The notes under the pieces were generated by a model. That model saw only the letters and a list, made by a program, of their open reading frames with translations, searched no databases and was not told the DNA's origin. From an uncultured Candidatus Saccharibacteria bacterium (GTDB taxonomy: Bacteria > Patescibacteriota > Minisyncoccia > Phycocordibacterales > UBA9973), in the NCBI GenBank assembly GCA_964527235.1, contig CAZGNC010000001.1, positions 170,344-234,343 on the forward strand: 64,000 nt of DNA, given 5' to 3'. The position numbers and the translations under genes were made by a program. Below are positions 4,329 to 48,364 of this stretch, in pieces (within the stretch, counting starts at the first letter, position 1; every line of letters begins with the position of its first letter).

Positions 4329-5456
4329 CTAGCCGAGTTTCAGGTCGCCTTGGGCTTTAAGCTTTGAGGGTTTTATGATGTTTTTCTTGTTTTGGCTGTA
4401 TCTCAAGTACCCGACCATGCCAATCATTATAGAGTTGTCGCGGGAGAGTTCTTTGGTGGGTATTAGTAGGCTTTTGCCTTTAGTTATTTTCTTGAGCTCT
4501 CTTTTTAAATGCTTATTCGCCGAGACTCCACCTCCGACTATAAGAGTTTCTGCCTTGTACTCGTCGATTGCTTTCTTGGTTTTGTAAACTAGTGTTTCTA
4601 CTACCGCATTTTCGAATTCCATTGCAACTTTAGATTTATCTACACTTGGGTTATCTTTTAGAAAATACAGTACAGCCGTCTTGAGCCCAGAGAAAGAAAA
4701 GTCCAAGTTTTTACTTTTTAGCATTGGGCGGGGAAAAGTAAAAGAAAAATCTTGCGTTTCAAGAGTACGGATATTTTTCTGCTGAAAAATTCCTCGTGCT
4801 CGCGCCGTCGCGCTCCCAAGTCTCTTGAAACGCAAGATTTTTCTCTGAGATTCAGCTAGACGTGAAATATGTGCTCCGCCTGGGTAGGGTAGTCCCAACA
4901 TGCGTGCCACCTTGTCATAGGCTTCACCCGCAGCGTCGTCTAGGGTCTTGCCTATGATTTTGTGTTTTAGGTTTTTCTCAGTGAGTACGAGCTCTGTGTG
5001 GCCTCCAGATACAAGCAGAGAAAGAACAGGGAGCTTCATCTTGTTGATAGTGAAGGAGCCTTTATTTTTGCCAAAAACTGAGAAGATGTGACCTTCCATA
5101 TGGTTGACTGGGATTATCGGGACACCCCACTTCTTCGAAAGTTCTTGAGCGAACACTATACCGGTCCAGAGTGCGGGCTCGAGACCTGGGCCATAAGTCA
5201 CAGCTATTAGATCAACTGGTTTAGATTTTTTGTTCAGCTTGCTTTGTTTGAGAACTTTTTCGAGAAGTATCGGTAGATTCTTCGTATGTTCCTTTTTAGC
5301 CAAAGCAGGGAAGACTCCACCGTACTCTGCGTGGATTGTTTGAGACGCTAGTGAGTCGGCAAGAACTTTATAAGAAGGCTTCGTGAGCCCACCCTTTGCT
5401 TCTAGTATTGTTATGCCTGTATCATCACAGGAGGTTTCTATTGAAAGTATTTTCAT
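4329..5456 (-). CDS. tsaD: tRNA N6-adenosine threonylcarbamoyltransferase TsaD (Kae1/Gcp), carrying a ~33-aa in-frame insertion
   Basis: 375 aa; Kae1/TsaD motifs HMEGH, GGVSANK and DFSFSGLKTAV; extra segment between ISRLA and FPRPM coincides with the palindromic element at 4745-4842. Confidence 0.85.
   Translation of the reverse strand: MKILSIETSCDDTGITILEAKGGLTKPSYKVLADSLASQTIHAEYGGVFPALAKKEHTKNLPILLEKVLKQSKLNKKSKPVDLIAVTYGPGLEPALWTGIVFAQELSKKWGVPIIPVNHMEGHIFSVFGKNKGSFTINKMKLPVLSLLVSGGHTELVLTEKNLKHKIIGKTLDDAAGEAYDKVARMLGLPYPGGAHISRLAESQRKILRFKRLGSATARARGIFQQKNIRTLETQDFSFTFPRPMLKSKNLDFSFSGLKTAVLYFLKDNPSVDKSKVAMEFENAVVETLVYKTKKAIDEYKAETLIVGGGVSANKHLKRELKKITKGKSLLIPTKELSRDNSIMIGMVGYLRYSQNKKNIIKPSKLKAQGDLKLG
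4745..4842. repeat. ~98-bp palindromic element, copy A, in-frame inside tsaD; perfect 21-bp terminal inverted repeats flank a ~58-bp conserved core
   Basis: IRs aaaaatcttgcgtttcaagag (4745-4765) / ctcttgaaacgcaagattttt (4822-4842); core acggatatttttctgctgaaaaattcctcgtgctcgcgccgtcgcgctcccaagtctc recurs near 48289. Confidence 0.6.
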
Positions 5457-6327: not shown

Positions 6328-6909
6328 TTAACGTTTTTCAATTTCTTTTAAAATTTTAGGTATCTTCTTAAAGTCTGTTATTAGCGTCTCACGCATACCG
6401 CCGTTGTATAGCGCTGCTGCGGGGTGATAGAGTGCGAAGAAATATTTGGTAGGCATTCCTGCGAATTGTTTGATTAGGAGTTTGCCATGAGCTTGAGAAA
6501 TTTGTTCAGCAGGGAAGAAGTTGTTCATTGCGTGTCGTCCTAGGAATACTATAAGCTTGGGTTCTATCATCTTCAGTTCTTCTAGAAGCCATTCTCGACA
6601 ATCAGTCTTTTCTTGGGGTAATGGATCGCGATTATTTGGAGGGCGGTATTTTACTATGTTGGTGATGTATATATCTTCACGTTTTAATTTTATTTCTGCG
6701 AGCATTTCTCCCAAGAATTTCCCCGCAGCGCCGACGAAGGGTATACCTTTCTCATCTTCGTTTCGGCCAGGTGCTTCACCGATGAAAACAATTTCAGCCT
6801 CGGCACTACCATCTCCGGGGACTGCTTGCTTGGCAGTTTTCCTAAGTTCGCATTTGCATTCTGCAATCCATTTCTGATTTAGTTGATCGAGTTTTTCTTT
6901 TTTAGTCAC
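6328..6909 (-). CDS. uracil-DNA glycosylase, family 4; probable GTG start, leaderless
   Basis: Motifs ECKCEL (Fe-S Cys pair), GEAPG and HPAAALY; the upstream 90 codons of the 291-aa track ORF are read-through into the GC-rich island; TATAAT sits 7 nt upstream of the GTG. Confidence 0.65.
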   Translation of the reverse strand: MTKKEKLDQLNQKWIAECKCELRKTAKQAVPGDGSAEAEIVFIGEAPGRNEDEKGIPFVGAAGKFLGEMLAEIKLKREDIYITNIVKYRPPNNRDPLPQEKTDCREWLLEELKMIEPKLIVFLGRHAMNNFFPAEQISQAHGKLLIKQFAGMPTKYFFALYHPAAALYNGGMRETLITDFKKIPKILKEIEKR

Positions 6910-6947
6910 GTGATAAATTATACCAATTTCTGTATATAAAAGACGTA

Positions 6948-6976
6948 GCCCCGCGGTAGCAGGGCTACGCGCGGGG
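6948..6976 (-). terminator. GC-rich hairpin plus T-run on the minus strand (terminator of the 56-aa island gene)
   Basis: gccccgcggtagc-agg-gctacgcgcgggg followed on the minus strand by cgtctttta. Confidence 0.45.
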
Positions 6977-6988
6977 CTGGTGATCAGA

Positions 6989-7159
6989 TCAACGCCAGTG
7001 TGCCTGGCCGTTGTAGCCACGGCGTTCGAGCGCGCGGCCTTCGTCTGGGGGCATCTTGAATGCGCCGAGGCTGGTGTAGGCGGTTGCCACTTCAGGTCGT
7101 GGCTGTTCGCCTGGGATGGTTGGCACGACCTTGTTTTCGGATGTGGTGCTGTCGGACAT
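6989..7159 (-). CDS. hypothetical small protein (56 aa) in GC-rich island 1
   Basis: SD GGAGGA 6 nt upstream of ATG; TTGACA-N18-CATAAT promoter upstream; hairpin terminator downstream; no family recognised (MSDSTTSENKVVPTIPGEQPRPEV...). Confidence 0.4.
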   Translation of the reverse strand: MSDSTTSENKVVPTIPGEQPRPEVATAYTSLGAFKMPPDEGRALERRGYNGQAHWR

Positions 7160-7202
7160 TGTGATCCTCCATGGGGAACGGGGTGGGGGTGTTCTGTGCT
7201 CA

Positions 7203-7262
7203 ATTATGCATATATAAGTACATATTGTCAAAGCTTGCCAAGTGGCGAAAAGAGTGTATAAA
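7203..7262. promoter_or_regulatory. divergent promoter region of island 1 (minus: TTGACA-N18-CATAAT; plus: TTGCCA-N16-TATAAA)
   Basis: AT-rich 60-bp gap between two divergent GC-rich ORFs; overlapping -35 elements tgtcaa/ttgcca. Confidence 0.35.
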
Positions 7263-7308
7263 TAAAAAAGGCGCAGGTGGGGTTCACTCTGACTTAGGAG
7301 GCGATTTC

Positions 7309-7617
7309 ATGTATGTATTGCTGAGGCAACCAGCGTTCGCGTTGGTGCAACACCCGAAGGGTATCGGGGATCCTGAAACTGCGAGGATCATCGAGTTCTT
7401 TCAGGCTCACCCGGGCGTAATGGTGATCCTGGTCAGGATCGGGTCTGTTCAGGAGAAAGAGCTTCGGAGTGTTTCTGAACAGACAGGCAAAGGGACGTTG
7501 GTTGTCGTACTCGAGTACAGTATGATTGGCAAGTCTCAGTACGTGACTAGCGCAATCAACCCAAGTGACGAAGTCCTCGCACAATACCTCCGAGACTATT
7601 TCGAGGGTGGGATGTAG
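7309..7617 (+). CDS. hypothetical protein (103 aa) in GC-rich island 1
   Basis: SD TAGGAGG 7 nt upstream of ATG; internal start of the 148-aa track ORF; MYVLLRQPAFALVQHPKGIGDPETARIIEFF...; no family recognised. Confidence 0.45.
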   Translation: MYVLLRQPAFALVQHPKGIGDPETARIIEFFQAHPGVMVILVRIGSVQEKELRSVSEQTGKGTLVVVLEYSMIGKSQYVTSAINPSDEVLAQYLRDYFEGGM

Positions 7618-8054
7618 TCTGGGCTTCTGCGTACCTCCCGTCGTCGAAGTAAGACGGCGGGAGGGGAAGGGAATGGTTCTTTTGTAAAAGTTAAATAGTG
7701 TGTTATCGCGGCCTCGGGAATTTATTCTCGGGGTTTTTTGGTGGAAAAATTTTGTACGCTGTTTGTGTGGTCTGGAAACAATCAAAAAGCGCCACTCCGA
7801 GGAGCGGCGCCGTACGACCGTTTGAAGGCTGGTCGTCTTACCTTTGCGCGAGCTTGTCAGCGCCATCGCCCGGTGAGGTATGGGAGACTCATACCCAGCA
7901 ACCGACCATAGGAGTAGTAGTAGTCGTGGGCATATTCCACCTCGCGGTTGCCCCTGACTTGCCAACTACGCAATGTGACAATCATTGTTACTTCCCACAC
8001 CACTATCATTCTTGCCTCCGGGTAGGGGGGGGTGAGTGAGAGTTCGCTACTGGC

Positions 8055-8252
8055 TCATTGAGCGATGAGGCCCCACAGACGAGTCAGAGCGAAATAGAAG
8101 ATACCAACCACCACGACAATGATGAGCAGTACTGCTAAACCCGCAGTCATGTCTTTGGCGGCCCTCTCGGCATCTTCTCCACAGAACCCCAGCATGCCGG
8201 GAATAAGTAAGGCGGGACATCCCGCCATCGCGAAAACCCAGAACCAGTACAT
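8055..8252 (-). CDS. small membrane protein (65 aa, two hydrophobic helices) in GC-rich island 1
   Basis: SD GGAGGG 4 nt upstream of ATG (MYWFWVFAMAGCPALL...LAVLLIIVVVVGIFYFAL); TTGACT-N17-CAATAT promoter at ~8290-8330. Confidence 0.45.
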   Translation of the reverse strand: MYWFWVFAMAGCPALLIPGMLGFCGEDAERAAKDMTAGLAVLLIIVVVVGIFYFALTRLWGLIAQ

Positions 8253-8381
8253 TAGCCCTCCAGGTAGATTAGTGGGATTGGGATGCACTACAATCTAGTT
8301 CATATATTGTCACATTTATACATAAAAGTCAAGTTAAACGAAACTGCAGGGGGCGCGAGAAAGCTTGCGGGGATTTGCATG

Positions 8382-8426
8382 CTTCGTACGCTGAGTTTAC
8401 GTGGGCCACAAAAGCCCTACAGAGAA
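8382..8426. repeat. partial third copy of the tRNA-Glu-associated conserved block, fused to a 12-nt tRNA-Glu 3'-end-like fragment
   Basis: cttcgtacgctgagtttacgtgggccacaa matches copies at 8970 and 30749 with 4 mismatches; ccctacagagaa matches the tRNA-Glu 3' region at 30913-30924. Confidence 0.4.
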
Positions 8427-8457
8427 ACGCGAGTACGCTTTCGGGAGGCTGGGTACG

Positions 8458-8853
8458 CTATAGGGTTACCTCTTTTTTGACTGCTTGCTCAACTTTTTGA
8501 AGAAAACCCTCGGGGATTTCTTCTGCAGTATCAATTTCTGAGAAAACATGTTTGAGGCGTTCTATTTTTTCTCTAACTTCTTGTGCCTTTTGGGCCTCTC
8601 CAGCTTCTTCGTAGTATGTAATGTTAACTTTCAACAGACGCAAAATAGAATCAAGTGATGCCTTTACATCTTTTATAGGCCAAGGTTTATATTCGTCGGG
8701 AATAGCAATGATCATTCCTCTTACTAATACTTTCATGCTTGTTAATACAGCACCATTAGTATCTCTAACGTACTCAGCTAGTTTGTCTGGTGTGTAGTCA
8801 GGAATGTGTTCAGATTTTTGCGGGGTCATCGGAGGTCTTTCGAATTTATCCAT
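8458..8853 (-). CDS. hypothetical protein (131 aa)
   Basis: AT-rich host-like ORF with no recognisable domain; flanked by copies 1 and 3 of the conserved block. Confidence 0.5.
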   Translation of the reverse strand: MDKFERPPMTPQKSEHIPDYTPDKLAEYVRDTNGAVLTSMKVLVRGMIIAIPDEYKPWPIKDVKASLDSILRLLKVNITYYEEAGEAQKAQEVREKIERLKHVFSEIDTAEEIPEGFLQKVEQAVKKEVTL

Positions 8854-8969
8854 AAATTTAGTGTTATTTAATTTATTATTAATAAATAATTTTATAATAT
8901 GTAAAAAATGATGTCAATTTATCTAAACACCAGTAGAAGTCAGAATGTTGCAAGATACAATAAAATTTT

Positions 8970-9047
8970 GAGTGCTTCGCACGCAGAGTTTGTGTGGGCC
9001 ACAATAATTTGCTCGTCGTCACTCGCAAATTTTCCAGCCCCGGACTC
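8970..9047. repeat. conserved 78-nt block, copy 1 (3' side of tRNA-Glu-TTC)
   Basis: gagtgcttcgcacgcagagtttgtgtgggccacaataatttgctcgtcgtcactcgcaaattttccagccccggactc; 77/78 identical to 30749-30826; further similarity at ccgtcttcacaaa. Confidence 0.5.
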
Positions 9048-9096
9048 AGTTGTTTTTCTTGCTAGAAAAACATACTTCCGTCTTCACAAAGCACAG

Positions 9097-9124
9097 AAAA
9101 AGAGCACAGCAGTGTGCTCTTTTT
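9097..9124 (-). terminator. bidirectional intrinsic terminator hairpin after tRNA-Glu
   Basis: aaaaa-gagcaca-gcag-tgtgctc-ttttt: perfect 7-bp stem with A/T runs on both sides. Confidence 0.6.
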
Positions 9125-9139
9125 CATGTACGTGCTTTG

Positions 9140-9211
9140 TGACCCCACAGAGAATCGAACTCTGATTACCGCCTTGAAAAGGCGATGTCCTAACCGTTAG
9201 ACGATGGGGCC
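9140..9211 (-). tRNA. tRNA-Glu (anticodon TTC)
   Basis: Reverse complement GGCCCCATCGTCTAACGGTTAGGACATCGCCTTTTCAAGGCGG...TTCGATTC...TGGGGTCA folds as a cloverleaf with anticodon loop TTTTCAA. Confidence 0.85.
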
Positions 9212-9279
9212 GTATGGCCAAGTGTTTTACTTAGCAGAAATATAATAACATTTTTTATCTAAATTGCAAAAATGCGAAA

Positions 9280-9309
9280 CCCCCACCCGGCGTATTGCGC
9301 GGGCGGGGG
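9280..9309 (-). terminator. hairpin plus T-run terminating the CheY/2-TM operon on the minus strand
   Basis: cccccacccg-gcgtattgcg-cgggcggggg (9 of 10 bp paired), followed on the minus strand by tttcgcattttt. Confidence 0.45.
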
Positions 9310-9329
9310 CTGTGATGATTCCTGCTTGG

Positions 9330-9704
9330 CTAGCAGGGGGGTTGAGGGTTGATGATCGCCTCGATCTTCTCCTTGAGCAGATGTGGTGTGAACGGCTTGA
9401 CGATGTAGTTGTTCACGCCTGCCTGGACCGCCGCGATGATGTCTTCTTTCGCGCTGCTGGTAGTTACCAGCAGTATGGGTACCGACTTGCCGTCGGGACG
9501 AGCACGGAGCTTGCGAATGCACTCGATGCCGGACATGACTGGCATGTTCCAGTCGACGATGACGAAATCAATCGTCTTGTCGAACTTCGTGAGTGCTTCG
9601 AAGCCATTGCTGGCCTCGACGAAATCGACGTAGCCGATCTTCTCGAGCGAGGTGGTGATGATTCGGCGCATTGTGGCGGAATCATCAACGACGAGGAATT
9701 TCAT
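9330..9704 (-). CDS. CheY-like single-domain response regulator receiver protein (GC-rich island 2)
   Basis: 124 aa; canonical receiver residues DD (7-8), phospho-acceptor D in VIVDWNMP, T in LLVTT, K in IVKPF; no output domain. Confidence 0.75.
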   Translation of the reverse strand: MKFLVVDDSATMRRIITTSLEKIGYVDFVEASNGFEALTKFDKTIDFVIVDWNMPVMSGIECIRKLRARPDGKSVPILLVTTSSAKEDIIAAVQAGVNNYIVKPFTPHLLKEKIEAIINPQPPC

Positions 9705-9729
9705 GTTCTTCTCCTGTTGATGAGTGGCC

Positions 9730-9933
9730 TCAGCTCTTCTTCTTGAACAAACCCCATGCGGTCAGTCCAATCGCGATTACCGCCATGACGGTGAACAAGA
9801 TCGCTAGATCGACGGCGGGCTCTTTTTTGGTCTTGATTGCAAGGTGCCAAATCAATGCTGCCGTCGCCACGAGACATCCCGCAATCCATCCCATCAATAG
9901 AACACTGATGTTCTTGTTCGTCAATTTCGGCAT
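9730..9933 (-). CDS. small 2-TM membrane protein (67 aa), co-transcribed upstream of the CheY gene
   Basis: SD AGGAGG 7 nt upstream of ATG (MPKLTNKNISVLLMGWIAGCLVATAALIW...VMAVIAIGLTAWGLF); internal start of the 99-aa track ORF. Confidence 0.45.
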   Translation of the reverse strand: MPKLTNKNISVLLMGWIAGCLVATAALIWHLAIKTKKEPAVDLAILFTVMAVIAIGLTAWGLFKKKS

Positions 9934-10000
9934 GAATACTCCTCCTGGTTGTCGAAGGGGACAGGTCAGGGTGACCAATTCCCAGGTGCTTCCGATGTAA

Positions 10001-10029
10001 AGTATAGCACATTTTGACCCTTTTGTCAA
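10001..10029 (-). promoter_or_regulatory. sigma70-like promoter TTGACA-N17-TATACT (minus strand) with a palindrome over the -35 element
   Basis: Minus-strand TTGACAaaagggtcaaaatgtgcTATACT; inverted repeat TTGAC-aaaaggg-GTCAA overlaps the -35. Confidence 0.4.
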
Positions 10030-10136
10030 AGGGTATTTTATGGAAAAATTATAACCTTATGGTATAAAGAAAGTGAGTATTAGATAGTTCTGTTGGTGTA
10101 GGCAATCACCCCGCACAAGCATGGAGGTATTACGTC

Positions 10137-10322
10137 ATGCATCACGATCTTCCGGCAGGGCAAGAACACAAACGTTGCGAGCGTTGCGCTCGCAGTACTT
10201 TGCACGACGAGAATGTCTGCCAGGAGTGTGGACTTTCTGCCCCTTCAGGGCAAGTGCATGGGGCATCAATTTCCGGTGGCCAGGCGACTGCCTGGTCAAA
10301 TGGATCCGCAACCGACCAATGA
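10137..10322 (+). CDS. small zinc-ribbon-like protein (61 aa; CxxC...CxxC)
   Basis: SD GGAGGT 8 nt upstream of ATG; CERCARSTLHDENVCQECG. Confidence 0.4.
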   Translation: MHHDLPAGQEHKRCERCARSTLHDENVCQECGLSAPSGQVHGASISGGQATAWSNGSATDQ

Positions 10323-10332
10323 GGAAGAGAAG

Positions 10333-10527
10333 ATGGCTGACAGCAAGAATTCCGAAGGCGATGCGGTGAGAGGAGAGATCGAATCTTTGCGTGCAGATCT
10401 AGCGTCGTCTCCCAAGGATCCGATCGTGATTCCATCGCTCGATATCATTGGGCGATCACACCCTTTGCACCCTGATTTTGAGCCGACGGCTGTGTCGCTC
10501 ACCAATGATCGTCGTCTCACCAAGTGA
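10333..10527 (+). CDS. hypothetical acidic small protein (64 aa)
   Basis: SD GAGGAAGAG upstream of an internal ATG of the 104-aa track ORF; MADSKNSEGDAVRGEIESLRADL... Confidence 0.3.
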   Translation: MADSKNSEGDAVRGEIESLRADLASSPKDPIVIPSLDIIGRSHPLHPDFEPTAVSLTNDRRLTK

Positions 10528-10536
10528 GGTGATCGC

Positions 10537-10743
10537 ATGCCCCCACATTCGCACAAGAAAGGCAATAAGCCTCGCCGCGGAAAGAGGGAGCGCAGAGAGG
10601 CGAAACTGCAGGCCAAGCGATATGAAGAAGCAGCTCGGCGTCTTCGTGAACAAGGCCACAGCGGGAATATGAACGACGGCAGTCGGACGTACCAGGGTCC
10701 CACCTGGGGTCATCAAAGCCGGCGAAGGAGTAATTCGAAGTAG
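10537..10743 (+). CDS. highly basic small protein (68 aa, Lys/Arg-rich)
   Basis: SD GAGGTGA 5 nt upstream of ATG; MPPHSHKKGNKPRRGKRERREAKLQAKRYEEAARRLRE... Confidence 0.4.
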   Translation: MPPHSHKKGNKPRRGKRERREAKLQAKRYEEAARRLREQGHSGNMNDGSRTYQGPTWGHQSRRRSNSK

Positions 10744-10756
10744 AGGGAGAATCGAA

Positions 10757-10800
10757 GCGAGGGGCGTCAAACAACCGACGCCACCTCGCTTTTCCTTTTT
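10757..10800 (+). terminator. intrinsic terminator of the island-2 plus-strand operon
   Basis: gcgaggggcgtc-aaacaacc-gacgcc(a)cctcgc followed by ttttcctttttt. Confidence 0.55.
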
Positions 10801-10827
10801 TATGTGGCGTGTTAGTTTTATTAATAC

Positions 10828-10914
10828 GGAGGCGTGGCTGAGTGGTTGAAGGCACCGGTTTCGAAAACCGGCATTGGGGAAACCTAATCGTGAGTTCAAA
10901 TCTCACCGCCTCCG
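10828..10914 (+). tRNA. tRNA-Ser (anticodon CGA)
   Basis: GGAGGCG...CGCCTCC acceptor; anticodon stem-loop CCGGT-TTCGAAA-ACCGG; long variable arm; T-loop TTCAAAT. Confidence 0.85.
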
Positions 10915-10917
10915 CTT

Positions 10918-29644: not shown

Positions 29645-30682
29645 TTACTTTTTAAATACTCTAATTATTTCAGAAAGAAGGGTGTCCATGTTCGGTTGAA
29701 AGCTTACTTGTGTTTTACTTGGAAGTATCTCTTTATTGCGTATAGGGGTGTGAAGATATGAATCAGATATTTTTCTAGATGAAACATCCAAGGGTAAAAT
29801 TATATCTCTAAAACTCTTAGTGCCATAATTGTTGACAACTTCTGTAAATGTTTTTTTCTCAAAGATAGGTGGTATATGGTCTAAAATTGACCGAATAAGC
29901 ATTCCGCTGGCTAAGTAGTTACCTAAACTATAATTATCGTTGAGCTCCTTACACATTTGTATAAGTTTGGTTAAATCATATTTCTCAGATTTTATTTGAG
30001 ACAATCCAAGTATTATTGAGCTCTCAATGTAATAAGATTCTTTTGCAGTTTCACTCGTAAAACTTTTTTTGTTTTTAGGTTTACTTATTTCTTTTTCAAA
30101 CTCAAAAGAGAAACTCTTTAACTGACTAGGCATACTTATAATATATTTTGATATAGATTCCCAATAAATATGGGGTGCGATATAATATCCTGAAGCAGAT
30201 TCCGTATCCCTAGTCATGAACTTTGTTGGAAATAAGTCATGAAAATAATCAGTTGCACTTTTAAGAGTAAATTTTTCAATTCTTGAAATATCTGAAGAAC
30301 TTTCTTTTGATAGATATATAATTATTTCTCTTTGAATATCTTGAAATTCAGTTTCTAATTCTAATGCAAAAACTTTAGCCTTATCTAGAGATACACCAGA
30401 ATCTTTTTCAATCTTTGCTCGCACCTCTTCTTCACTTTTTTCTCCCCAGCCATCTGGGATTCCGTGAATTAAACCCCACTCAATACTAAAACGATTCATG
30501 GCACTTGGTTCTCGAAAATCCTCATAAAAAAACTTTGCATGTCCAACAAAGGATGAACCACTCCATGCCTTCGCTATTTCATGGCAAACGTCAGTAACTT
30601 TTTCGGCCTCTGATTTAAAACTACTGGCTTTCTTGACAAGCTCATTAAGTTTTTCTCTGAAGTTCTCAATTTCCGTACTCAT
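29645..30682 (-). CDS. hypothetical protein (345 aa) next to the tRNA-Glu and conserved block
   Basis: Host-like composition; no recognised domain; C-terminal R-x7-H segment (RKISDSYLH) is only loosely HEPN-like. Confidence 0.45.
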   Translation of the reverse strand: MSTEIENFREKLNELVKKASSFKSEAEKVTDVCHEIAKAWSGSSFVGHAKFFYEDFREPSAMNRFSIEWGLIHGIPDGWGEKSEEEVRAKIEKDSGVSLDKAKVFALELETEFQDIQREIIIYLSKESSSDISRIEKFTLKSATDYFHDLFPTKFMTRDTESASGYYIAPHIYWESISKYIISMPSQLKSFSFEFEKEISKPKNKKSFTSETAKESYYIESSIILGLSQIKSEKYDLTKLIQMCKELNDNYSLGNYLASGMLIRSILDHIPPIFEKKTFTEVVNNYGTKSFRDIILPLDVSSRKISDSYLHTPIRNKEILPSKTQVSFQPNMDTLLSEIIRVFKK

Positions 30683-30748: not shown

Positions 30749-30826
30749 GAGTGCTACGCACGCAGAGTTTGTGTGGGCCACAATAATTTGCTCGTCGTCA
30801 CTCGCAAATTTTCCAGCCCCGGACTC
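30749..30826. repeat. conserved 78-nt block, copy 2 (3' side of tRNA-Glu-CTC)
   Basis: 77/78 identical to 8970-9047; same orientation and same position relative to its tRNA-Glu. Confidence 0.5.
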
Positions 30827-30909
30827 GGCTATTCACGTACTCGTGAATTATGCCTCCGTCTTCACAAAACGCTCATAAATAAAGCAGTTTATTTACTTTG
30901 CGCGTTTTG

Positions 30910-30981
30910 TGACCCTACAGAGAATCGAACTCTGATTTGATCCTTGAGAAGGATCCGTCCTAGCCGTTAGACGATAGGGCC
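30910..30981 (-). tRNA. tRNA-Glu (anticodon CTC)
   Basis: Reverse complement GGCCCTATCGTCTAACGGCTAGGACGGATCCTTCTCAAGGATC...TTCGATTC...TAGGGTCA; anticodon loop TTCTCAA. Confidence 0.85.
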
Positions 30982-31087
30982 ATATAAAACATCTAGACCT
31001 ATCGTCCTGAAAACCTGAACGGGCGATAGGCCCAATAAGGAAAAGATAACATTTTTAAAATAAAAATCAAAAGCAGGGAAGGTGTGT

Positions 31088-31116
31088 TTGACTTTTGGGT
31101 AATATACTATATAATA
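31088..31116 (+). promoter_or_regulatory. sigma70-like promoter TTGACT-N16-TATAAT driving the island-5 plus-strand operon
   Basis: ttgacttttgggtaatatactatataat ~80 nt upstream of the first island ORF. Confidence 0.45.
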
Positions 31117-31197
31117 TTATACAGTATATGTAGGTACATTGTAAGACCAGTCGGCCACAAACGGTTGATTGGAACCTGAACACAGGAGTCGCACCGC

Positions 31198-31386
31198 ATG
31201 ATGAGGGTTGTTATGAAGCCGAGAAAGACAACTCAAGAAACAATCACGTTTCTTCGAGAGGGGGTAGAAATCACTTTATCCTCTCCGGTTGTTGCCATCG
31301 TTCCCGACGAGGAACGGCTGGAGTTTCTTTCTGACTCGCGCGTCGTTATCAGTCCCCGCGTCGATATTGCGACGCTTGTGAGTTGA
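31198..31386 (+). CDS. hypothetical small protein (62 aa) in GC-rich island 5
   Basis: SD AGGAG 9 nt upstream of ATG; MMRVVMKPRKTTQETITFLREGVEITLSSPVVAIVPDEERLEFL... Confidence 0.4.
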   Translation: MMRVVMKPRKTTQETITFLREGVEITLSSPVVAIVPDEERLEFLSDSRVVISPRVDIATLVS

Positions 31387-31396
31387 ATCGCCACCT

Positions 31397-31420
31397 GGCC
31401 CCCGCGACGTCGCGGGGGCC
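31397..31420. repeat. perfect 24-nt palindrome GGCCCCCGCGACGTCGCGGGGGCC in the intercistronic gap (operator or RNA hairpin candidate)
   Basis: Self-complementary over all 24 nt; no T-run follows; sits 23 nt upstream of the next SD. Confidence 0.5.
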
Positions 31421-31443
31421 TCACTGCTTAAGGAGGATATCAC

Positions 31444-31689
31444 ATGCAGACCAGGATTGAAGTAACTATCCTCAGTGACGGGCGGGTGCAGGTGGATGAG
31501 AACGGGCAGAAGTCCGTGATCACTCCACAGTCGAATGGGTTCATGTTCGCGATGAATATCAACGGGGACTACTCCCTGACCATCAGCGATCCGAAGCCGG
31601 AGCCGGCGATCCTTCCACGTGTGCCCTTGTCGAGTCTCAGTTGCTTCGACGGGGGGTTGCTTTTTCCGGAGGGAGGTGGCAACCCATGA
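31444..31689 (+). CDS. hypothetical protein (81 aa) in GC-rich island 5
   Basis: SD AAGGAGGA 7 nt upstream of ATG; MQTRIEVTILSDGRVQVDENGQKSVITPQSNGFMFAMNINGDYSL...; stop overlaps the next start (ATGA). Confidence 0.45.
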   Translation: MQTRIEVTILSDGRVQVDENGQKSVITPQSNGFMFAMNINGDYSLTISDPKPEPAILPRVPLSSLSCFDGGLLFPEGGGNP

Positions 31690-31775
31690 TCCTGCTCTTG
31701 ATGTGGGTCATCGTGGCAATCTTCGGCGGGTGGCTCGTCATGCACTCTGCCGAGTGCAAGTGGGCCGACGAGTAG
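31686..31775 (+). CDS. 29-aa hydrophobic membrane peptide (MILLLMWVIVAIFGGWLVMHSAECKWADE), translationally coupled to the upstream gene
   Basis: ATGA start/stop overlap with the upstream ORF; single TM helix; below the 60-aa threshold of the ORF track. Confidence 0.35.
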   Translation: MILLLMWVIVAIFGGWLVMHSAECKWADE

Positions 31776-31791
31776 GTGTCGGCATGCAGTA

Positions 31792-31829
31792 GGGGTCTCG
31801 CGTTCGCGCGAGGCCCCGTTTTTGTTTTT
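31792..31829 (+). terminator. intrinsic terminator of the island-5 plus-strand operon
   Basis: ggggtctcgcg-ttcg-cgcgaggcccc followed by gtttttgttttt. Confidence 0.6.
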
Positions 31830-31884
31830 ATTTATTTTATATTAAAATTAATTTGGAACAATCAACCACCAACGGAGGTGCCAC

Positions 31885-32013
31885 ATGTTGGAGACGATAG
31901 TTGGTGTCCTGTTCGTGGCATCCTTGTGTGCCATTGTCCTGTATTTTCTGAGACGTGGTTGGCAGTTACTGAAAGAGATTGGGGATGCTCTTGAGCATCC
32001 GTTCAATGAATGA
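31885..32013 (+). CDS. 42-aa membrane peptide (MLETIVGVLFVASLCAIVLYFLRRGWQLLKEIGDALEHPFNE)
   Basis: SD GGAGGT 7 nt upstream of ATG; one TM helix; a weak hairpin plus T-rich stretch follows near 32036-32075. Confidence 0.35.
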   Translation: MLETIVGVLFVASLCAIVLYFLRRGWQLLKEIGDALEHPFNE

Positions 32014-32191
32014 CATCTTGAGGAATCGGCCCTGGCGCAAGCTAGGGCTTTCTCGTATAAAAATAAAACGCCTCACAGCTCAGAGAGCGCGAGGTGTTCT
32101 TGTGACGTAGTAAGACGTCGGCTTGATCTTGCCCGCCGAGCAATGGCTACGACGGGGTTGCGCGAGGTGCAAATAGCTTGCGAGATGTGAA

Positions 32192-32500
32192 CTATCCCAA
32201 GGCTTTCTTTACGAGAGCGCTCAAGATGATCACACCTGCGGCGACAATGAAGATCAGAGTCAGTGTTGCCGTTTCCGAAGCCTTGGGCTTGGTTTGGTTC
32301 ACAGGCTCCGGCTCTTTGTCTTCGCCGTTCCACCAGTCGTTTCCGAACACTGGTGCCTCCTTCTTGTCAGGGGTCTTCGTTACACGGTGTTCACCTGTAC
32401 TCCGCAGATGTTCTTCGAAGCCTTTCGGTCTGAGGTTCGTAACTTCAAGACCGAACGGTATTCTTCTTCTTTTTACCTTTCCCTTCTTCCTTTTTTTCAT
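32192..32500 (-). CDS. 102-aa protein with a Lys/Arg-rich N-terminus and a C-terminal TM anchor (tail-anchored)
   Basis: SD GGGAGGGA upstream of an internal ATG of the 118-aa track ORF; MKKRKKGKVKRRRIPFGLEV...ATLTLIFIVAAGVIILSALVKKALG. Confidence 0.4.
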   Translation of the reverse strand: MKKRKKGKVKRRRIPFGLEVTNLRPKGFEEHLRSTGEHRVTKTPDKKEAPVFGNDWWNGEDKEPEPVNQTKPKASETATLTLIFIVAAGVIILSALVKKALG

Positions 32501-32580
32501 CTGTATCCCTCCCGGCAGGGATGCGATTGACTTGCCCCGTCGGTACACGATTCGCCGGCGGGGTTGCTATGTCGGTGTGT

Positions 32581-32712
32581 TCATACTGAGCAACTTTGCA
32601 TCCACACCACGATGCAAACCACGACCAGAAGTCCGATCACGTACCCTGTGCTCACCGGCATGTTGTTGTACATCCATGAGAATGCTTTCTGGGCTTTCTG
32701 GATCTGAGTCAC
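32581..32712 (-). CDS. 43-aa TM peptide, GTG start (VTQIQKAQKAFSWMYNNMPVSTGYVIGLLVVVCIVVWMQSCSV)
   Basis: SD AGGAG 9 nt upstream of GTG; GC3-rich frame; preferred over the overlapping 113-aa Arg/Ser-rich track ORF. Confidence 0.3.
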   Translation of the reverse strand: MTQIQKAQKAFSWMYNNMPVSTGYVIGLLVVVCIVVWMQSCSV

Positions 32713-32742
32713 AATTCCTACTCCTGGTGTCTAGTGAAGGAG

Positions 32743-32811
32743 TCAGGACAGCAGACTGAAAAGTAGCCCTACTCCTAGGCCGACGGCCACCACGGTTCCG
32801 AGAATCTTCAT
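32743..32811 (-). CDS. 22-aa hydrophobic peptide (MKILGTVVAVGLGVGLLFSLLS); may extend to a 41-aa form starting at 32868
   Basis: Hydrophobic ORF between two TM-peptide genes on the minus strand; no clear SD; tentative. Confidence 0.2.
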   Translation of the reverse strand: MKILGTVVAVGLGVGLLFSLLS

Positions 32812-32904
32812 CAACGGTGTCTTGGTATTGACGCGGGTCTGCTGGAGTCTGTCTTGTGGCAACCTCATTCGGCGCCGGGGGGGCGCCCTCTTGGAGTGGT
32901 TCGG

Positions 32905-33069
32905 TCATGACTTCCTCTCCTTTGTTGAAGTGGTCCCAAAGAAGGCGCTAGGTGCCTCTCCGGGGTGGAGCACTTGCCACGAACCGTAGATCGTGGCGAA
33001 GCACAGCGTGATGAGCGCAATCGCGGTGAGAGCGCTCCTGAACAGGAACCCGCCAATCTGTTCTTTCAT
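32905..33069 (-). CDS. 54-aa TM protein (MKEQIGGFLFRSALTAIALITLCFATIYGSWQVLHPGEAPSAFFGTTSTKERKS)
   Basis: Strong GC3 bias; TTGACA-N16-TAATCA promoter-like sequence upstream; weak SD; ATGA overlap with the next downstream frame. Confidence 0.35.
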   Translation of the reverse strand: MKEQIGGFLFRSALTAIALITLCFATIYGSWQVLHPGEAPSAFFGTTSTKERKS

Positions 33070-33137
33070 TGGAAGGTGCTCGCTTTTTTGGATTCAATAA
33101 AATGATTACGTTTTCAACGCCTTTTGTCAATAGCTGG

Positions 33138-48040: not shown

Positions 48041-48259
48041 ATGAAAAAAGAGATACACCCAGAATTTAATACTAAAACTACAGCTACCTGTGCTTGCGGA
48101 GCTACTTTTCTAGTTGGTTCTACTGCAAAGGAAATAAAGATGGAAATCTGCAGTAACTGCCACCCTTTCTATACAGGAAACGAAAAAATAATGGATACTA
48201 CAGGACGAGTTGAGAGATTCAACAAGCGTAAGGCTGCAACTGCTAAGGCTAAGAAGTAG
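48041..48259 (+). CDS. rpmE: 50S ribosomal protein L31 (zinc-ribbon type A)
   Basis: 72 aa; MKKEIHPEF...CACG...CSNCHPFYTG. Confidence 0.85.
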   Translation: MKKEIHPEFNTKTTATCACGATFLVGSTAKEIKMEICSNCHPFYTGNEKIMDTTGRVERFNKRKAATAKAKK

Positions 48260-48265
48260 ATACCT

Positions 48266-48364
48266 TCTAGATATACTTTTCTGGAGCACGGATATTTTTC
48301 TGGTGAAAAATTCCTCGTGCTCGCGCCGGTCGCGCTCGCAAGTCTCCCAAAAAGTATATCTAGA
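48266..48364. repeat. ~99-bp palindromic element, copy B, intergenic between rpmE and prfA; perfect 15-bp terminal inverted repeats flank the same ~58-bp core as in tsaD
   Basis: IRs tctagatatactttt / aaaagtatatctaga; core acggatatttttctggtgaaaaattcctcgtgctcgcgccggtcgcgctcgcaagtctc (about 55/59 identical to the tsaD copy). Confidence 0.6.

What the first reader, a model, noticed from the sequence alone, without database searches (positions are those of the whole stretch)
8382..9211. Conserved 78-nt block on the 3' side of both tRNA-Glu genes, plus a third partial copy fused to a tRNA-Glu 3'-end-like fragment (att-site-like remnant)
Seen in sequence. Positions 8970-9047 and 30749-30826 are 77/78 identical, with further similarity extending to ccgtcttcacaaa. 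They sit in the same orientation 40-100 nt beyond the 3' ends of tRNA-Glu(TTC) and tRNA-Glu(CTC), and 60-110 nt upstream of the unrelated hypothetical genes 8458-8853 and 29645-30682. A third partial copy (8382-8411, about 26/30 identical) is directly joined to ccctacagagaa, a 12-nt match to the tRNA-Glu 3' region. Copy 3 therefore looks like the junction left when an element bounded by the block and a tRNA 3' end recombined. tRNA 3' ends are the classic attachment sites for integrases (established knowledge). That would make the block the arm of a degraded integrative element, with gene 8458-8853 as cargo. Alternatives are a shared 5'-leader or regulatory RNA for the downstream genes, or a tRNA 3'-trailer processing element. 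The block contains no ORF that is conserved between copies.
Basis: partly seen in the sequence, partly recalled or inferred. Interest (0 to 1): 0.6.

Follow-up and report, generated by a model that had tools for sequence, protein, structure and literature searches.

The report
Structured small RNA trailing tRNA-Glu genes
The repeated 78-base block is most of a previously uncatalogued, tightly folded small RNA of about 175 bases encoded directly behind tRNA genes in many Patescibacteria (tiny uncultured bacteria); it is not a leftover virus-integration site, although the third partial copy does mark a rearranged spot where a small mobile gene was inserted.

Summary
Blocks 8970-9047 and 30749-30826 are 77/78 identical. 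Each lies 3' of a minus-strand tRNA-Glu gene. A partial copy (8374-8411) abuts a 12-nt copy of the tRNA-Glu 3' end.

The block is not an att arm. It is the 3' two-thirds of a roughly 170-185-nt structured RNA on the tRNA strand:
- P1 starts at tRNA nucleotide 72/73.
- P2 carries a conserved GGA/GA internal loop.
- P3 is long, with conserved G·U pairs and a GACG loop.
- P4 is a GCGAAGC mini-hairpin.

Homologues occur in about 45 GTDB and 114 metagenome loci, all Patescibacteria where named. Of 29 modelled pairs, 27-29 show compensatory changes, and 95-97% of cells pair against 37-53% in slid controls.

About 58% of copies follow a tRNA, almost always tRNA-Glu. Others form tandem arrays joined by a linker that copies the tRNA 3' end. 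At least eight have their own sigma-70-like promoter at the equivalent start. Rfam 15 has no match. Downstream genes are unrelated and have their own promoters.

Copy 3 is a linker plus the last third of a second unit. The 131-aa gene between them is a mobile cassette flanked by direct repeats. The RNA's function is unknown; I infer a trans-acting RNA released by tRNA 3' processing.

The parts
9242..9270 (-). sigma-70-like promoter (TTTGCA-17-TATTAT, TG-extended) upstream of tRNA-Glu(UUC); the only promoter-like site that can drive copy 1 of the RNA
9140..9211 (-). tRNA-Glu(UUC), no encoded CCA
9085..9141 (-). P1 of copy 1: outer stem 9132-9141 (starts at tRNA C72/A73) pairs with 9085-9094; inner hairpin 9097-9124 has a CUGC tetraloop and is terminator-like here
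9043..9082 (-). P2 of copy 1: GAC/GUC, conserved GGA/GA internal loop, AGU/ACU, then a variable hairpin GUUUUUCU-AGCA-AGAAAAAC
8996..9041 (-). P3 of copy 1: GGGGCUGG.../...UGUGGCCC with G·U pairs, AAUUUGC/GCAAAUU, tandem G·A, GACG tetraloop
8966..8995 (-). 3' tail ACACAAACUCU and P4 mini-hairpin GCGUGCGAAGCAC, followed by an A/U-rich run (probable 3' end of the RNA)
8889..8917 (-). TTGACA-17-TAAAAT promoter of the 131-aa gene, lying between the RNA and that gene
8458..8853 (-). 131-aa gene with no known domain; inserted cassette between RNA unit 1 and the linker
8415..8440 (-). family linker ('tail') AAGCGUACUCGCGUUUCUCUGUAGGG, ending in a copy of the tRNA-Glu T-stem/acceptor 3' strand
8374..8411 (-). 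partial RNA unit (P3 3' strand, tail, P4), 84% identical to 8967-9004; right-hand direct repeat around the cassette
30910..30981 (-). tRNA-Glu(CUC)
30863..30911 (-). P1 of copy 2: CACAAAACGC/GCGUUUUGUG (compensatory relative to copy 1) around an A/U-only hairpin with a CUGC loop
30745..30860 (-). P2 (30822-30860, different hairpin sequence but same fold), P3 (30775-30820), tail and P4 (30751-30774) of copy 2
29645..30682 (-). 345-aa variable gene downstream of copy 2; homologues lie in unrelated neighbourhoods; not part of the RNA

Best explanation
Each block is the conserved 3' part of a roughly 170-185-nt structured small RNA encoded on the minus strand directly behind a tRNA-Glu gene.

Shown:
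- The RNA has four helices, P1 to P4, preserved by compensatory substitutions across Patescibacteria, with conserved G·U pairs and conserved loops.
- P1 begins at tRNA nucleotides 72/73.
- No promoter lies between the tRNA and the RNA.
- In other genomes the same RNA has its own promoter, placed so that transcription would start at the base of P1.

Inferred:
- In this window the RNA is made as a tRNA-Glu-RNA precursor.
- The nuclease that trims the CCA-less tRNA after the discriminator (RNase Z type) creates the RNA's 5' end at the same stroke.
- The RNA then acts in trans, most likely as a ligand for a conserved protein or RNA partner rather than as a regulator of the neighbouring gene.
- Its P3 base and 3' flank (GGCYCA-CA) resemble the tRNA-Glu acceptor end (GGGUCA-CA). 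A role as a mimic of the tRNA 3' end is therefore possible but untested.

On the copies:
- Units can be chained head to tail through a linker that ends in a copy of the tRNA 3' end.
- Copy 3 is such a linker plus the last third of a second unit.
- The 131-aa gene with its own promoter has been inserted between unit 1 and that linker.
For: Fold and covariation:
- Both copies fold far better than shuffles (z = -6.4 and -5.0).
- P1 and the P2 hairpin differ in sequence between the two copies yet keep their pairing.
- In a MAFFT alignment of 16 homologues, 29 pairs were modelled, 21 with compensatory changes, and 96.8% of cells pair against 37-53% when the partners are slid.
- In 46 distinct GTDB copies, 29/29 pairs show compensation and 94.9% of cells pair.
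- In 109 distinct metagenome copies, 27/29 pairs show compensation and 97.3% of cells pair.
- G·U predominates at three P3 pairs (88, 91 and 92 of 109), which fixes the folded strand as the tRNA strand.

Position and context:
- All 45 GTDB hits lie downstream of a same-strand tRNA, 33 of them at 40-98 nt.
- The P1 outer stem of 4-14 bp starts at C72/A73 in nearly all of the 33 tRNA-linked copies and adapts to tRNA-Val and tRNA-Arg.
- Among copies selected by the block's own 21-mer, 62 are tRNA-linked: 61 to tRNA-Glu and 1 to tRNA-Val.
- Eight distinct loci have a sigma-70-like promoter whose -10 ends 49-56 nt before the core.
- The window has a promoter before the tRNA and none between the tRNA and the RNA.

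Databases and neighbours:
- There is no Rfam 15 match, even at E<=10.
- The downstream genes of 131 loci share no family and are 66 same-strand to 65 opposite-strand.
Against: - No expression data exist. Transcription, processing and stability are all predicted.
- In copy 1 the inner P1 hairpin looks like an efficient intrinsic terminator (13 bp plus a U run), which would stop most transcripts before the conserved core. This is not so in copy 2 or in many homologues.
- Several features are also what a selfish repeated element would show: multiple copies, tandem arrays, mosaic subtypes (A1/A2 hybrids such as L108), assembly breaks at the element, and a related palindromic element inserted in frame in tsaD.
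- No partner protein is identified.
- The near-identity of the two window copies in P3-P4 could reflect gene conversion rather than selection.
Confidence: 0.6

Rival explanations
1. Selfish, non-autonomous repeated element (in the manner of REP/BIME, BOX, Correia or Rickettsia palindromic elements). It spreads to positions just after tRNA 3' ends or tRNA-end-like sequences. Its RNA fold is tolerated or mildly useful but has no dedicated cellular function.
For: - There are 2.3 copies in 64 kb.
- Relatives carry arrays of 2-3 units (L068, L173).
- Many metagenome contigs end inside the element.
- Mosaic combinations of modules occur (L108, L060, L070, L022).
- Copies are found behind tRNA-Val, Arg, Trp and Thr, with P1 matched to each.
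- Every unit is preceded by ...TCA|C.
- A module-sharing palindromic element is inserted in frame in tsaD.
- A faint Y1 transposase hit is present in a distant relative.
Against: - There are no terminal inverted repeats or target duplications around most copies.
- Orientation is always that of the upstream tRNA.
- Junction nucleotides, internal loops, tetraloops and G·U pairs are conserved across many genera.
- Some copies have a dedicated promoter.
- No copies were found in viral collections or phage records.
Confidence: 0.2
2. Purely cis-acting tRNA trailer. The structure serves only maturation, termination or protection of the upstream tRNA (for example as an RNase III/RNase Z guide or an exonuclease block) and has no life of its own.
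For: - P1 starts at C72/A73 in nearly every tRNA-linked copy.
- 58% of copies are tRNA-linked.
- The P1 inner hairpin is terminator-like in many copies.
Against: - Promoter-driven copies exist without any tRNA.
- Units in arrays are not preceded by a real tRNA.
- More than 100 nt of conserved P2-P3 architecture is more than a processing signal needs.
- Most tRNAs of the same genomes lack the element; four of the six tRNAs in this window have none.
Confidence: 0.12
3. One reading: the block is the arm of an attachment site left by a degraded integrative element that used the tRNA-Glu 3' end, with gene 8458-8853 as its cargo.
For: - A 12-14-nt copy of the tRNA-Glu 3' end lies at 8415-8428, next to a partial block.
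- 17-20-nt copies of the tRNA 3' end bracket the element in L070, L060 and L104.
- The 131-aa gene is flanked by direct repeats here and in L141.
- Variable or defence genes follow the element in relatives.
Against: - No integrase was found.
- 145 of 176 copies have no distal repeat.
- The block itself shows RNA-type covariation with strand-specific G·U pairs.
- The linker is an old conserved module with a 14-nt insertion relative to the tRNA, not a fresh target duplication.
- The direct repeat that flanks the cassette is the RNA's own 3' third, not the tRNA end (D4).
Confidence: 0.05
4. 5' leader or riboswitch controlling the downstream gene.
For: The element lies 67-117 nt upstream of same-strand genes in both window loci.
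Against: - An 11/12-match promoter lies between the element and gene 8458-8853.
- An extended -10 (TGATACAAT) lies 8 nt before the ATG of gene 30682, read directly from the sequence; the promoter scan did not report it.
- The downstream genes of 131 loci are unrelated and half are on the opposite strand.
- In L024 the next gene is a tRNA.
Confidence: 0.02

Closest known systems
tRNA 3' external-transcribed-spacer small RNAs (e.g. E. coli 3'ETS-leuZ; own knowledge)
   Same: A functional RNA carried in the trailer of a tRNA precursor and released by tRNA 3'-end processing. The RNA is not a regulator of the adjacent gene.
   Different: 3'ETS RNAs are short, weakly structured and act by Hfq-assisted base pairing. 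This RNA is about 175 nt with four covarying helices, also occurs with its own promoter and in tandem arrays, and its processing is only inferred.
Attachment sites of integrative elements in tRNA genes (tyrosine-integrase attL/attR with a duplicated tRNA 3' end; own knowledge)
   Same: A copy of the last 12-20 nt of the tRNA lies distal to the inserted DNA in some loci. Variable genes accumulate next to it.
   Different: There is no integrase. Most copies lack the distal repeat. The conserved sequence is an RNA fold with strand-specific G·U pairs. The repeat-bearing linker is itself a conserved module.
Small interspersed structured repeats (REP/BIME, BOX, ERIC, Correia, Rickettsia palindromic elements; own knowledge)
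   Same: Multi-copy, modular and mosaic, with hairpin-forming modules, tandem arrangements and variable hairpin sequences. A module-sharing relative is inserted in frame in tsaD, as RPEs are.
   Different: Orientation and position behind tRNAs are fixed. Internal loops and junctions are conserved across genera. Some copies have a promoter. No TIR/TSD is present.
tRNA-like processing signals (mitochondrial tRNA punctuation, MALAT1 mascRNA; own knowledge)
   Same: Linkers that copy the tRNA acceptor/T-stem 3' strand sit between RNA units. In L060, L070 and L104 they pair with an upstream antisense segment to form an acceptor/T-like helix ending in ACC(A).
   Different: Cleavage by RNase P/Z at these mimics is untested. 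The window's two full copies have no such mimic, only the real tRNA.
Orphan large structured RNAs often found beside tRNA genes (GOLLD, ROOL; Rfam)
   Same: Elaborately structured RNA of unknown function, frequently adjacent to tRNA genes.
   Different: There is no sequence or model similarity. This RNA is 3-5 times smaller, chromosomal rather than phage-associated, and physically fused to the tRNA 3' end through P1.

Membership tests
Any Rfam 15 family | Covariance-model match at the gathering score, or at least a suggestive E-value | tested here: not met
   Only tRNAs were found in the window and in 30 related loci. E<=10 scans of 6800-10900 and of L208 1150-1900 gave only chance-level hits.
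tRNA-gene att site of an integrative element | Integrase (tyrosine or serine recombinase) gene within or next to the element | tested here: not met
   No H-x-[LMFIV]-R-H-[STAG] motif (the regex H.[LMFIV]RH[STAG]) occurs in any ORF of at least 120 aa in the window or in 125 loci. Pfam on neighbours gave none. The regex is crude, so divergent recombinases could be missed.
tRNA-gene att site of an integrative element | Direct repeat of the tRNA 3' end bounding the inserted DNA | tested here: inconclusive
   Present at 8415-8428 (12-14 nt) and in L070, L060 and L104 (17-20 nt). Absent after 145 of 176 copies, including window copy 2.
tRNA-gene att site of an integrative element | Empty site in close relatives, or a free (attP) form | tested here: inconclusive
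   Contigs of relatives that are 88% identical end before the tRNA-Glu locus. No copy was found in IMG/VR or in phage records.
Riboswitch / 5' leader | Conserved association with a downstream gene family, with no promoter in between | tested here: not met
   The promoter at 8917-8889 lies between the element and the gene. Among 131 downstream genes the largest cluster has 6 members, all near-identical contigs, and strands split 66/65.
MITE / REP-like interspersed repeat | Terminal inverted repeats with target-site duplication, or a REP head plus palindrome; either orientation; many dispersed copies | tested here: not met
   Multi-copy status is met. However, orientation always follows the upstream tRNA, and no TIR/TSD surrounds the units.
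Intrinsic terminator of the tRNA gene | G+C-rich hairpin followed by a U run directly after the gene | tested here: inconclusive
   Met by the P1 inner hairpin of copy 1 (9125-9096). Not met by copy 2 (none found) or by many homologues. In any case it covers only about 30 of about 175 nt.
Structured non-coding RNA (generic) | Helices maintained by compensatory changes beyond phylogenetic and positional controls, with a defined strand | tested here: met
   95-97% of cells pair, against 37-53% for slid controls and 66-82% for shuffles (0/500 reach the observed value). 27-29 of 29 pairs have double changes. In the 16-sequence MAFFT alignment, G·U outnumbers A·C about 37 to 4.
Integron attC site | R''/R' core sites (RYYYAAC ... 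GTTRRRY), a cassette array next to intI | tested here: not met
   Read directly from the sequence, the stems are CACAAA/UUUGUG rather than the attC cores. No integrase was found.
tRNA-trailer-derived sRNA (3'ETS type) | Co-transcription with the tRNA and release by 3'-end processing | not testable with these tools
   Consistent with promoter placement and with P1 starting at C72/A73, but no transcript data are available.

The most novel reading that the evidence does not exclude
The units are a tRNA-processing-dependent RNA element. Each unit would be delimited by a real or mimicked tRNA 3' end (…GGGUCA|CAAA…) and cut out by RNase Z/RNase P. P1 would then act as a splint that brings the unit's 3' end (UCA) and 5' end (CAAAG…) together in one helix for ligation, giving a circular, possibly self-propagating RNA. 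This would be a bacterial counterpart of viroid-like or retrozyme RNAs. Alternatively, the conserved core is a ribozyme or decoy acting on the tRNA-Glu 3' end. Head-to-tail arrays, linkers that copy the tRNA end, and P1 spanning the junction are compatible with this reading but do not demonstrate it.
Probability: 0.07. Interest if true: 0.9.

Novelty: new variant of a known kind. Interest (0 to 1): 0.62.

Why it matters
Patescibacteria are a very large, mostly uncultured part of bacterial diversity, with reduced genomes and few recognised regulatory RNAs. This finding would give them a widespread, well-defined RNA family that can now be searched for.

- It is found in about 160 loci from groundwater, lakes and sludge, and is absent from Rfam.
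- It is physically coupled to tRNA-Glu maturation.
- It offers a concrete case for studying how tRNA 3' processing can be used to produce a second RNA.
- It offers a case for studying how copies of a tRNA end can chain RNA units together.
- It explains assembly breaks and rearrangement-prone, gene-variable spots next to tRNA genes in these genomes.

Tried and rejected
- The exact block pattern TTGTGGCCCACNNAAACTCNGCGT is absent from GTDB genomes and JGI metagenomes. The source species is not in those collections.
- Look-ups of the two downstream proteins returned only Logan contigs under 2 kb, which break inside the repeat.
- Three viral-collection patterns were scanned. Two gave only chance hits, checked with nhmmer and by reading L126; the third gave none.
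- A phage BLAST matched only the tRNA-Glu part.
- I considered a tRNA gene interrupted by a group I intron, as described for Patescibacteria in PMC13011429. I rejected it: there is no second acceptor/T-arm, the element is too short, and there is no Rfam intron hit.
- Box C/D or k-turn, hammerhead, T-box, SRP and 6S resemblances were considered by eye and dropped. The motifs do not fit, and Rfam finds nothing.
- I tested for a specifier-like match between junction or loop triplets and the anticodon of the upstream tRNA. There is no correlation (sequences).
- I tested for a kissing interaction between the CUGC loop and GCAG-like sites or the P2 loop. There is no covariation (sequences).
- I considered a closing helix S0 (UUUGUG/CACAAA) as an alternative to P1. 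Only 4-7 mostly invariant pairs are possible, with one concerted change in L121, so it remains unresolved.
- The three GC-rich ORF-poor segments are not similar to each other or to the GC-rich regions upstream of promoter-driven copies.
- Close relatives fetched through FtsZ did not reach the tRNA-Glu locus.
Full report
OBSERVATION

The window carries six tRNA genes. The two tRNA-Glu genes are on the minus strand: 9140-9211 (anticodon UUC) and 30910-30981 (CUC).

A short second stretch matches at 9072-9101 vs 30850-30879 (D16). A third copy, 8374-8411, is 84% identical to 8967-9004 (D4). A 19-mer from the block occurs three times where none is expected. TCTCTGTAGGG, the 3' strand of the tRNA-Glu(CUC) T-stem and acceptor, lies at 8415-8425, three bases from copy 3.

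Read on the tRNA strand, the block is downstream of each tRNA.

ANATOMY

On the minus strand the sequence from the tRNA end to just past the block folds into four helices in both copies, far better than shuffled sequence (z = -6.4 and -5.0).

- P1. Its outer stem starts at tRNA C72/A73 (9132-9141 with 9085-9094; 30902-30911 with 30863-30872). The sequence differs between the copies but stays complementary (CACAAAGCAC/GUGCUUUGUG vs CACAAAACGC/GCGUUUUGUG). It encloses a hairpin with a CUGC tetraloop.
- P2. It has two 3-bp helices around a conserved GGA/GA internal loop. It is capped by a hairpin whose sequence is entirely different in the two copies (GUUUUUCU-AGCA-AGAAAAAC vs AUUCACG-AGUA-CGUGAAU).
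- P3. This 46-nt irregular hairpin has a G·U-rich base, AAUUUGC/GCAAAUU, a tandem G·A and a GACG loop. It is identical in the two copies.
- Tail and P4. A short tail (ACACAAACUCU) and a GCGAAGC-type mini-hairpin follow.

RELATIVES

The exact block is absent from the GTDB genome and JGI metagenome collections. Scanning GTDB genomes for the 3' end of this tRNA-Glu returned 120 loci, nearly all labelled Patescibacteria/Paceibacteria (Nomura-, Kaiser-, Campbell-, Vogelbacteria and others).

BLAST, nhmmer and a covariance model find the same element in about 45 places there. Two subtypes share P2 and the base of P3 but differ in the middle of P3. A1 is the window's type. A2 has GGGGUCGCGAGCACUUA.../...UUAGUGACUUGUGACC.

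A 21-mer from the block (GAGTCCGGGGCTGGAAAATTT) then retrieved 114 metagenome contigs holding 136 copies. No Rfam 15 family matches the window or the relatives. Viral collections and phage records hold nothing beyond tRNA-Glu itself.

IT IS AN RNA STRUCTURE ON THE tRNA STRAND

Covariation was counted on three alignments.

| Alignment | Sequences | Pairs with compensatory change | Cells paired | Slid controls |
|---|---|---|---|---|
| MAFFT, A1 subtype | 16 | 21 of 29 | 96.8% | 37-53% |
| Model-based, GTDB | 46 distinct | 29 of 29 | 94.9% | 39-47% |
| Model-based, metagenome | 109 distinct | 27 of 29 | 97.3% | 37-51% |

For the MAFFT alignment, shuffled controls paired 76% of cells and 0/500 shuffles reached the observed value. 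The middle pair of the first P2 helix takes all four Watson-Crick forms. The model-fitted alignments lean towards the structure, but the MAFFT alignment gives the same picture.

Three P3 pairs are G·U in 88-92 of 109 sequences. In the 16-sequence alignment G·U outnumbers A·C by about 37 to 4. The folded strand is therefore the tRNA strand. These positions would be mismatches on the other strand or in duplex-DNA terms.

CONTEXT

- In the GTDB set every one of 45 hits lies downstream of a same-strand tRNA, 33 of them at 40-98 nt. The tRNA is mostly tRNA-Glu(UUC/CUC), but also Val, Arg, Trp and Thr. That set was chosen through tRNA-Glu, so it is biased.
- In the metagenome set, chosen through the block itself, 62 of about 106 assessable copies follow a tRNA (61 Glu, 1 Val). 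About 20 follow a tRNA-3'-end-like remnant, usually as second or third units of arrays.
- Eight distinct loci (L161, L160, L214, L200, L211, L208, L250, L194) have a sigma-70-like promoter whose -10 hexamer ends 49-56 nt before the core. That is 5-9 nt before the base of P1.
- The P1 outer stem (4-14 bp) starts at C72/A73 in nearly all of the 33 tRNA-linked copies (31 of 33; in L060 and L096 it is weaker or offset). It changes with the tRNA, for example CGCACAAG/CUUGUGCG behind tRNA-Val and GACACAAAAUAC/GUAUUUUGUGUC behind tRNA-Arg.
- In the window a promoter-like site precedes tRNA-Glu(UUC) (9270-9242), and none lies between the tRNA and the RNA. An 11/12-match promoter (TTGACA-17-TAAAAT, 8917-8889) lies between the RNA and gene 8458-8853.
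- The downstream genes of 131 loci share no family and are on either strand equally. In L024 the next gene is tRNA-Val. In the close relative L086 it is a glmU-like gene.

Taken together, these findings exclude a leader or riboswitch. They point to an RNA gene whose 5' end coincides with the tRNA 3' boundary.

ARRAYS, LINKERS AND COPY 3

L068 has three units in tandem. The first two units end in ...CCUGUAAGGAUCGAUAAGCGUACUCGCGGUCUCUGUAGGGUCA, after which the next P1 (CAAA...) begins; the third ends in a terminator-like hairpin instead. This linker follows the RNA within 120 nt in 13 of about 176 copies, mainly where another unit follows. It is absent from 145.

In L060, L070 and L104 the core or a related insert is nested in a helix. 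That helix is made of an antisense segment and a 17-20-nt sense copy of the upstream tRNA's T-stem/acceptor 3' strand, ending in ACC(A).

Window positions 8415-8440 are an exact instance of the linker motif (AAGCGUACUCGCGUUUCUCUGUAGGG). Positions 8374-8411 are the last third of a second RNA unit. The window is the only case in which the linker is separated from the preceding RNA (by 523 nt), and the gap holds the 131-aa gene with its own promoter.

That gene has a single homologue among 5.8 billion proteins (56% identity). In L141 the homologue is inserted behind a gap gene between 54-nt direct repeats of the gap 3' end. In the window the cassette is likewise flanked by 38-nt direct repeats (8967-9004 and 8374-8411).

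No integrase motif was found in the window or the relatives.

The 345-aa gene behind copy 2 has about 70 full-length homologues in unrelated neighbourhoods. Among the three neighbourhoods examined were toxin-antitoxin-type genes (HicA, NYN) and the Shedu defence gene SduA. In L121 the array is followed by AAA_13 and HEPN_AbiV genes. The DNA just downstream of the RNA is thus a variable spot.

MECHANISM (INFERRED)

The tRNA genes encode no CCA, so an endonuclease of the RNase Z type must cut after A73. That cut would also create the 5' end of the trailing RNA, at the position where promoter-driven copies are predicted to start.

The size, the conserved loops and the G·U pairs suggest a specific partner. 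None is identified, because no gene family co-occurs locally.

The P3 base and its 3' flank (GGCYCA-CA...) resemble the tRNA-Glu acceptor end with its trailer (GGGUCA-CA...). The 3' strands of P1 and P3 are both complementary to that end. Mimicry of, or competition for, the tRNA 3' end is therefore a reasonable but untested idea.

A caveat applies. The inner P1 hairpin of copy 1 looks like a terminator, although copy 2 and many homologues lack the U run.

RIVALS

A selfish repeated element remains a serious alternative, or an additional property. The evidence is multi-copy status, arrays, mosaics, and a module-sharing palindromic element inserted in frame in tsaD. A purely cis-acting tRNA trailer is contradicted by the promoter-driven and array copies. 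The att-arm and leader models are contradicted as described above.

VERDICT

This is a real, widespread and previously uncatalogued structured RNA family of Patescibacteria, coupled to tRNA-Glu genes. It has a recombination-prone linker system that explains the third copy. Its function is open.

Noticed in passing
window 4757-4850 (minus strand, inside tsaD ORF 4329-5456) and 48278-48360 (between rpmE 48041-48259 and prfA): A second small repeat family has a 51-nt core that is 92% identical between the two copies. Its closing inverted repeats differ in sequence (23 nt vs 15 nt) but both pair. One copy is inserted in frame in tsaD and adds about 35 amino acids between conserved motifs, like Rickettsia palindromic elements. 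It shares a GACG-loop hairpin and an AAUUUUUCAGCAGAAAAAU hairpin with the tRNA-trailer RNA, and gives a weak model hit of 19 bits.
   Followed up: partly
window 6900-8457, 9212-10827, 30982-33137: Three G+C-rich segments (50-62% against about 40% for the window) have no convincing long ORF apart from a CheY-like receiver at 9330-9704. They flank both tRNA-Glu loci. They are absent from relative L086, where tRNA-Ser and tRNA-Glu are 74 nt apart, and partly shared with the 88%-identical relative L263. They are not similar to each other. No Rfam hit was found in the window-wide gathering scan or in the E<=10 scan of 6800-10900.
   Followed up: partly
window 10828-10915 vs L263 12435-12522: The 88-nt tRNA-Ser(CGA) gene is inverted relative to its flanks between the window and a relative that is 88% identical. 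In L263 a tRNA-Ser 5' fragment and a CUGC-loop hairpin sit next to it.
   Followed up: no
L141 300-830: The only homologue of the 131-aa protein (56% identity) is inserted after a gap gene and flanked by a 54-nt direct repeat of the gap 3' end (3 mismatches). This suggests a tiny gene cassette that carries or duplicates the 3' end of its target.
   Followed up: partly
window 29645-30682; loci L256-L261: The 345-aa protein has no Pfam or PADLOC hit but about 70 full-length homologues in Paceibacteria, in unrelated neighbourhoods (HicA/NYN/ParB; Shedu SduA; methyltransferases). Its C-terminal ~125 residues recur fused to PIN, integrase and other domains in diverse bacteria.
   Followed up: partly
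L214, L200, L208, L211, L216, L250, L161 (about 300 nt upstream of the promoter-driven RNA copies): A conserved G+C-rich non-coding region (e.g. ...CCCCAGACCCCUCCUGCGCGCG...AGUCGAGGUUUUGCGAAUCC...CCGAGUCCGC...) precedes the promoter of stand-alone copies. It has no Rfam match and was not analysed further.
   Followed up: no
L104, L116, L090, L095, L085, L012, L034, L115 and others (directly 3' of tRNA-Glu): A second trailer type ('B') reads GACCCUAAG - CUGC-loop hairpin - CGUCAGAGAAUCGAA - variable hairpins - GAUCCUGUAAGGAUC - GAUUCUCUGUAGGGUCACC(A). This is an acceptor/T-like helix built from an antisense and a sense copy of the tRNA-Glu 3' end. It is not present in the window.
   Followed up: partly
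L121 2426-5395; L068 1249-2337: AAA_13 ATPase and HEPN_AbiV genes lie directly downstream of an RNA array, and a reverse transcriptase lies 3 kb upstream of another. Defence-type genes cluster near these tRNA-Glu loci.
   Followed up: no
L185 972-1094: A LOOT RNA (Rfam RF03000, 99 bits) lies on a metagenome contig that also carries the tRNA-trailer RNA, about 8.7 kb away.
   Followed up: no
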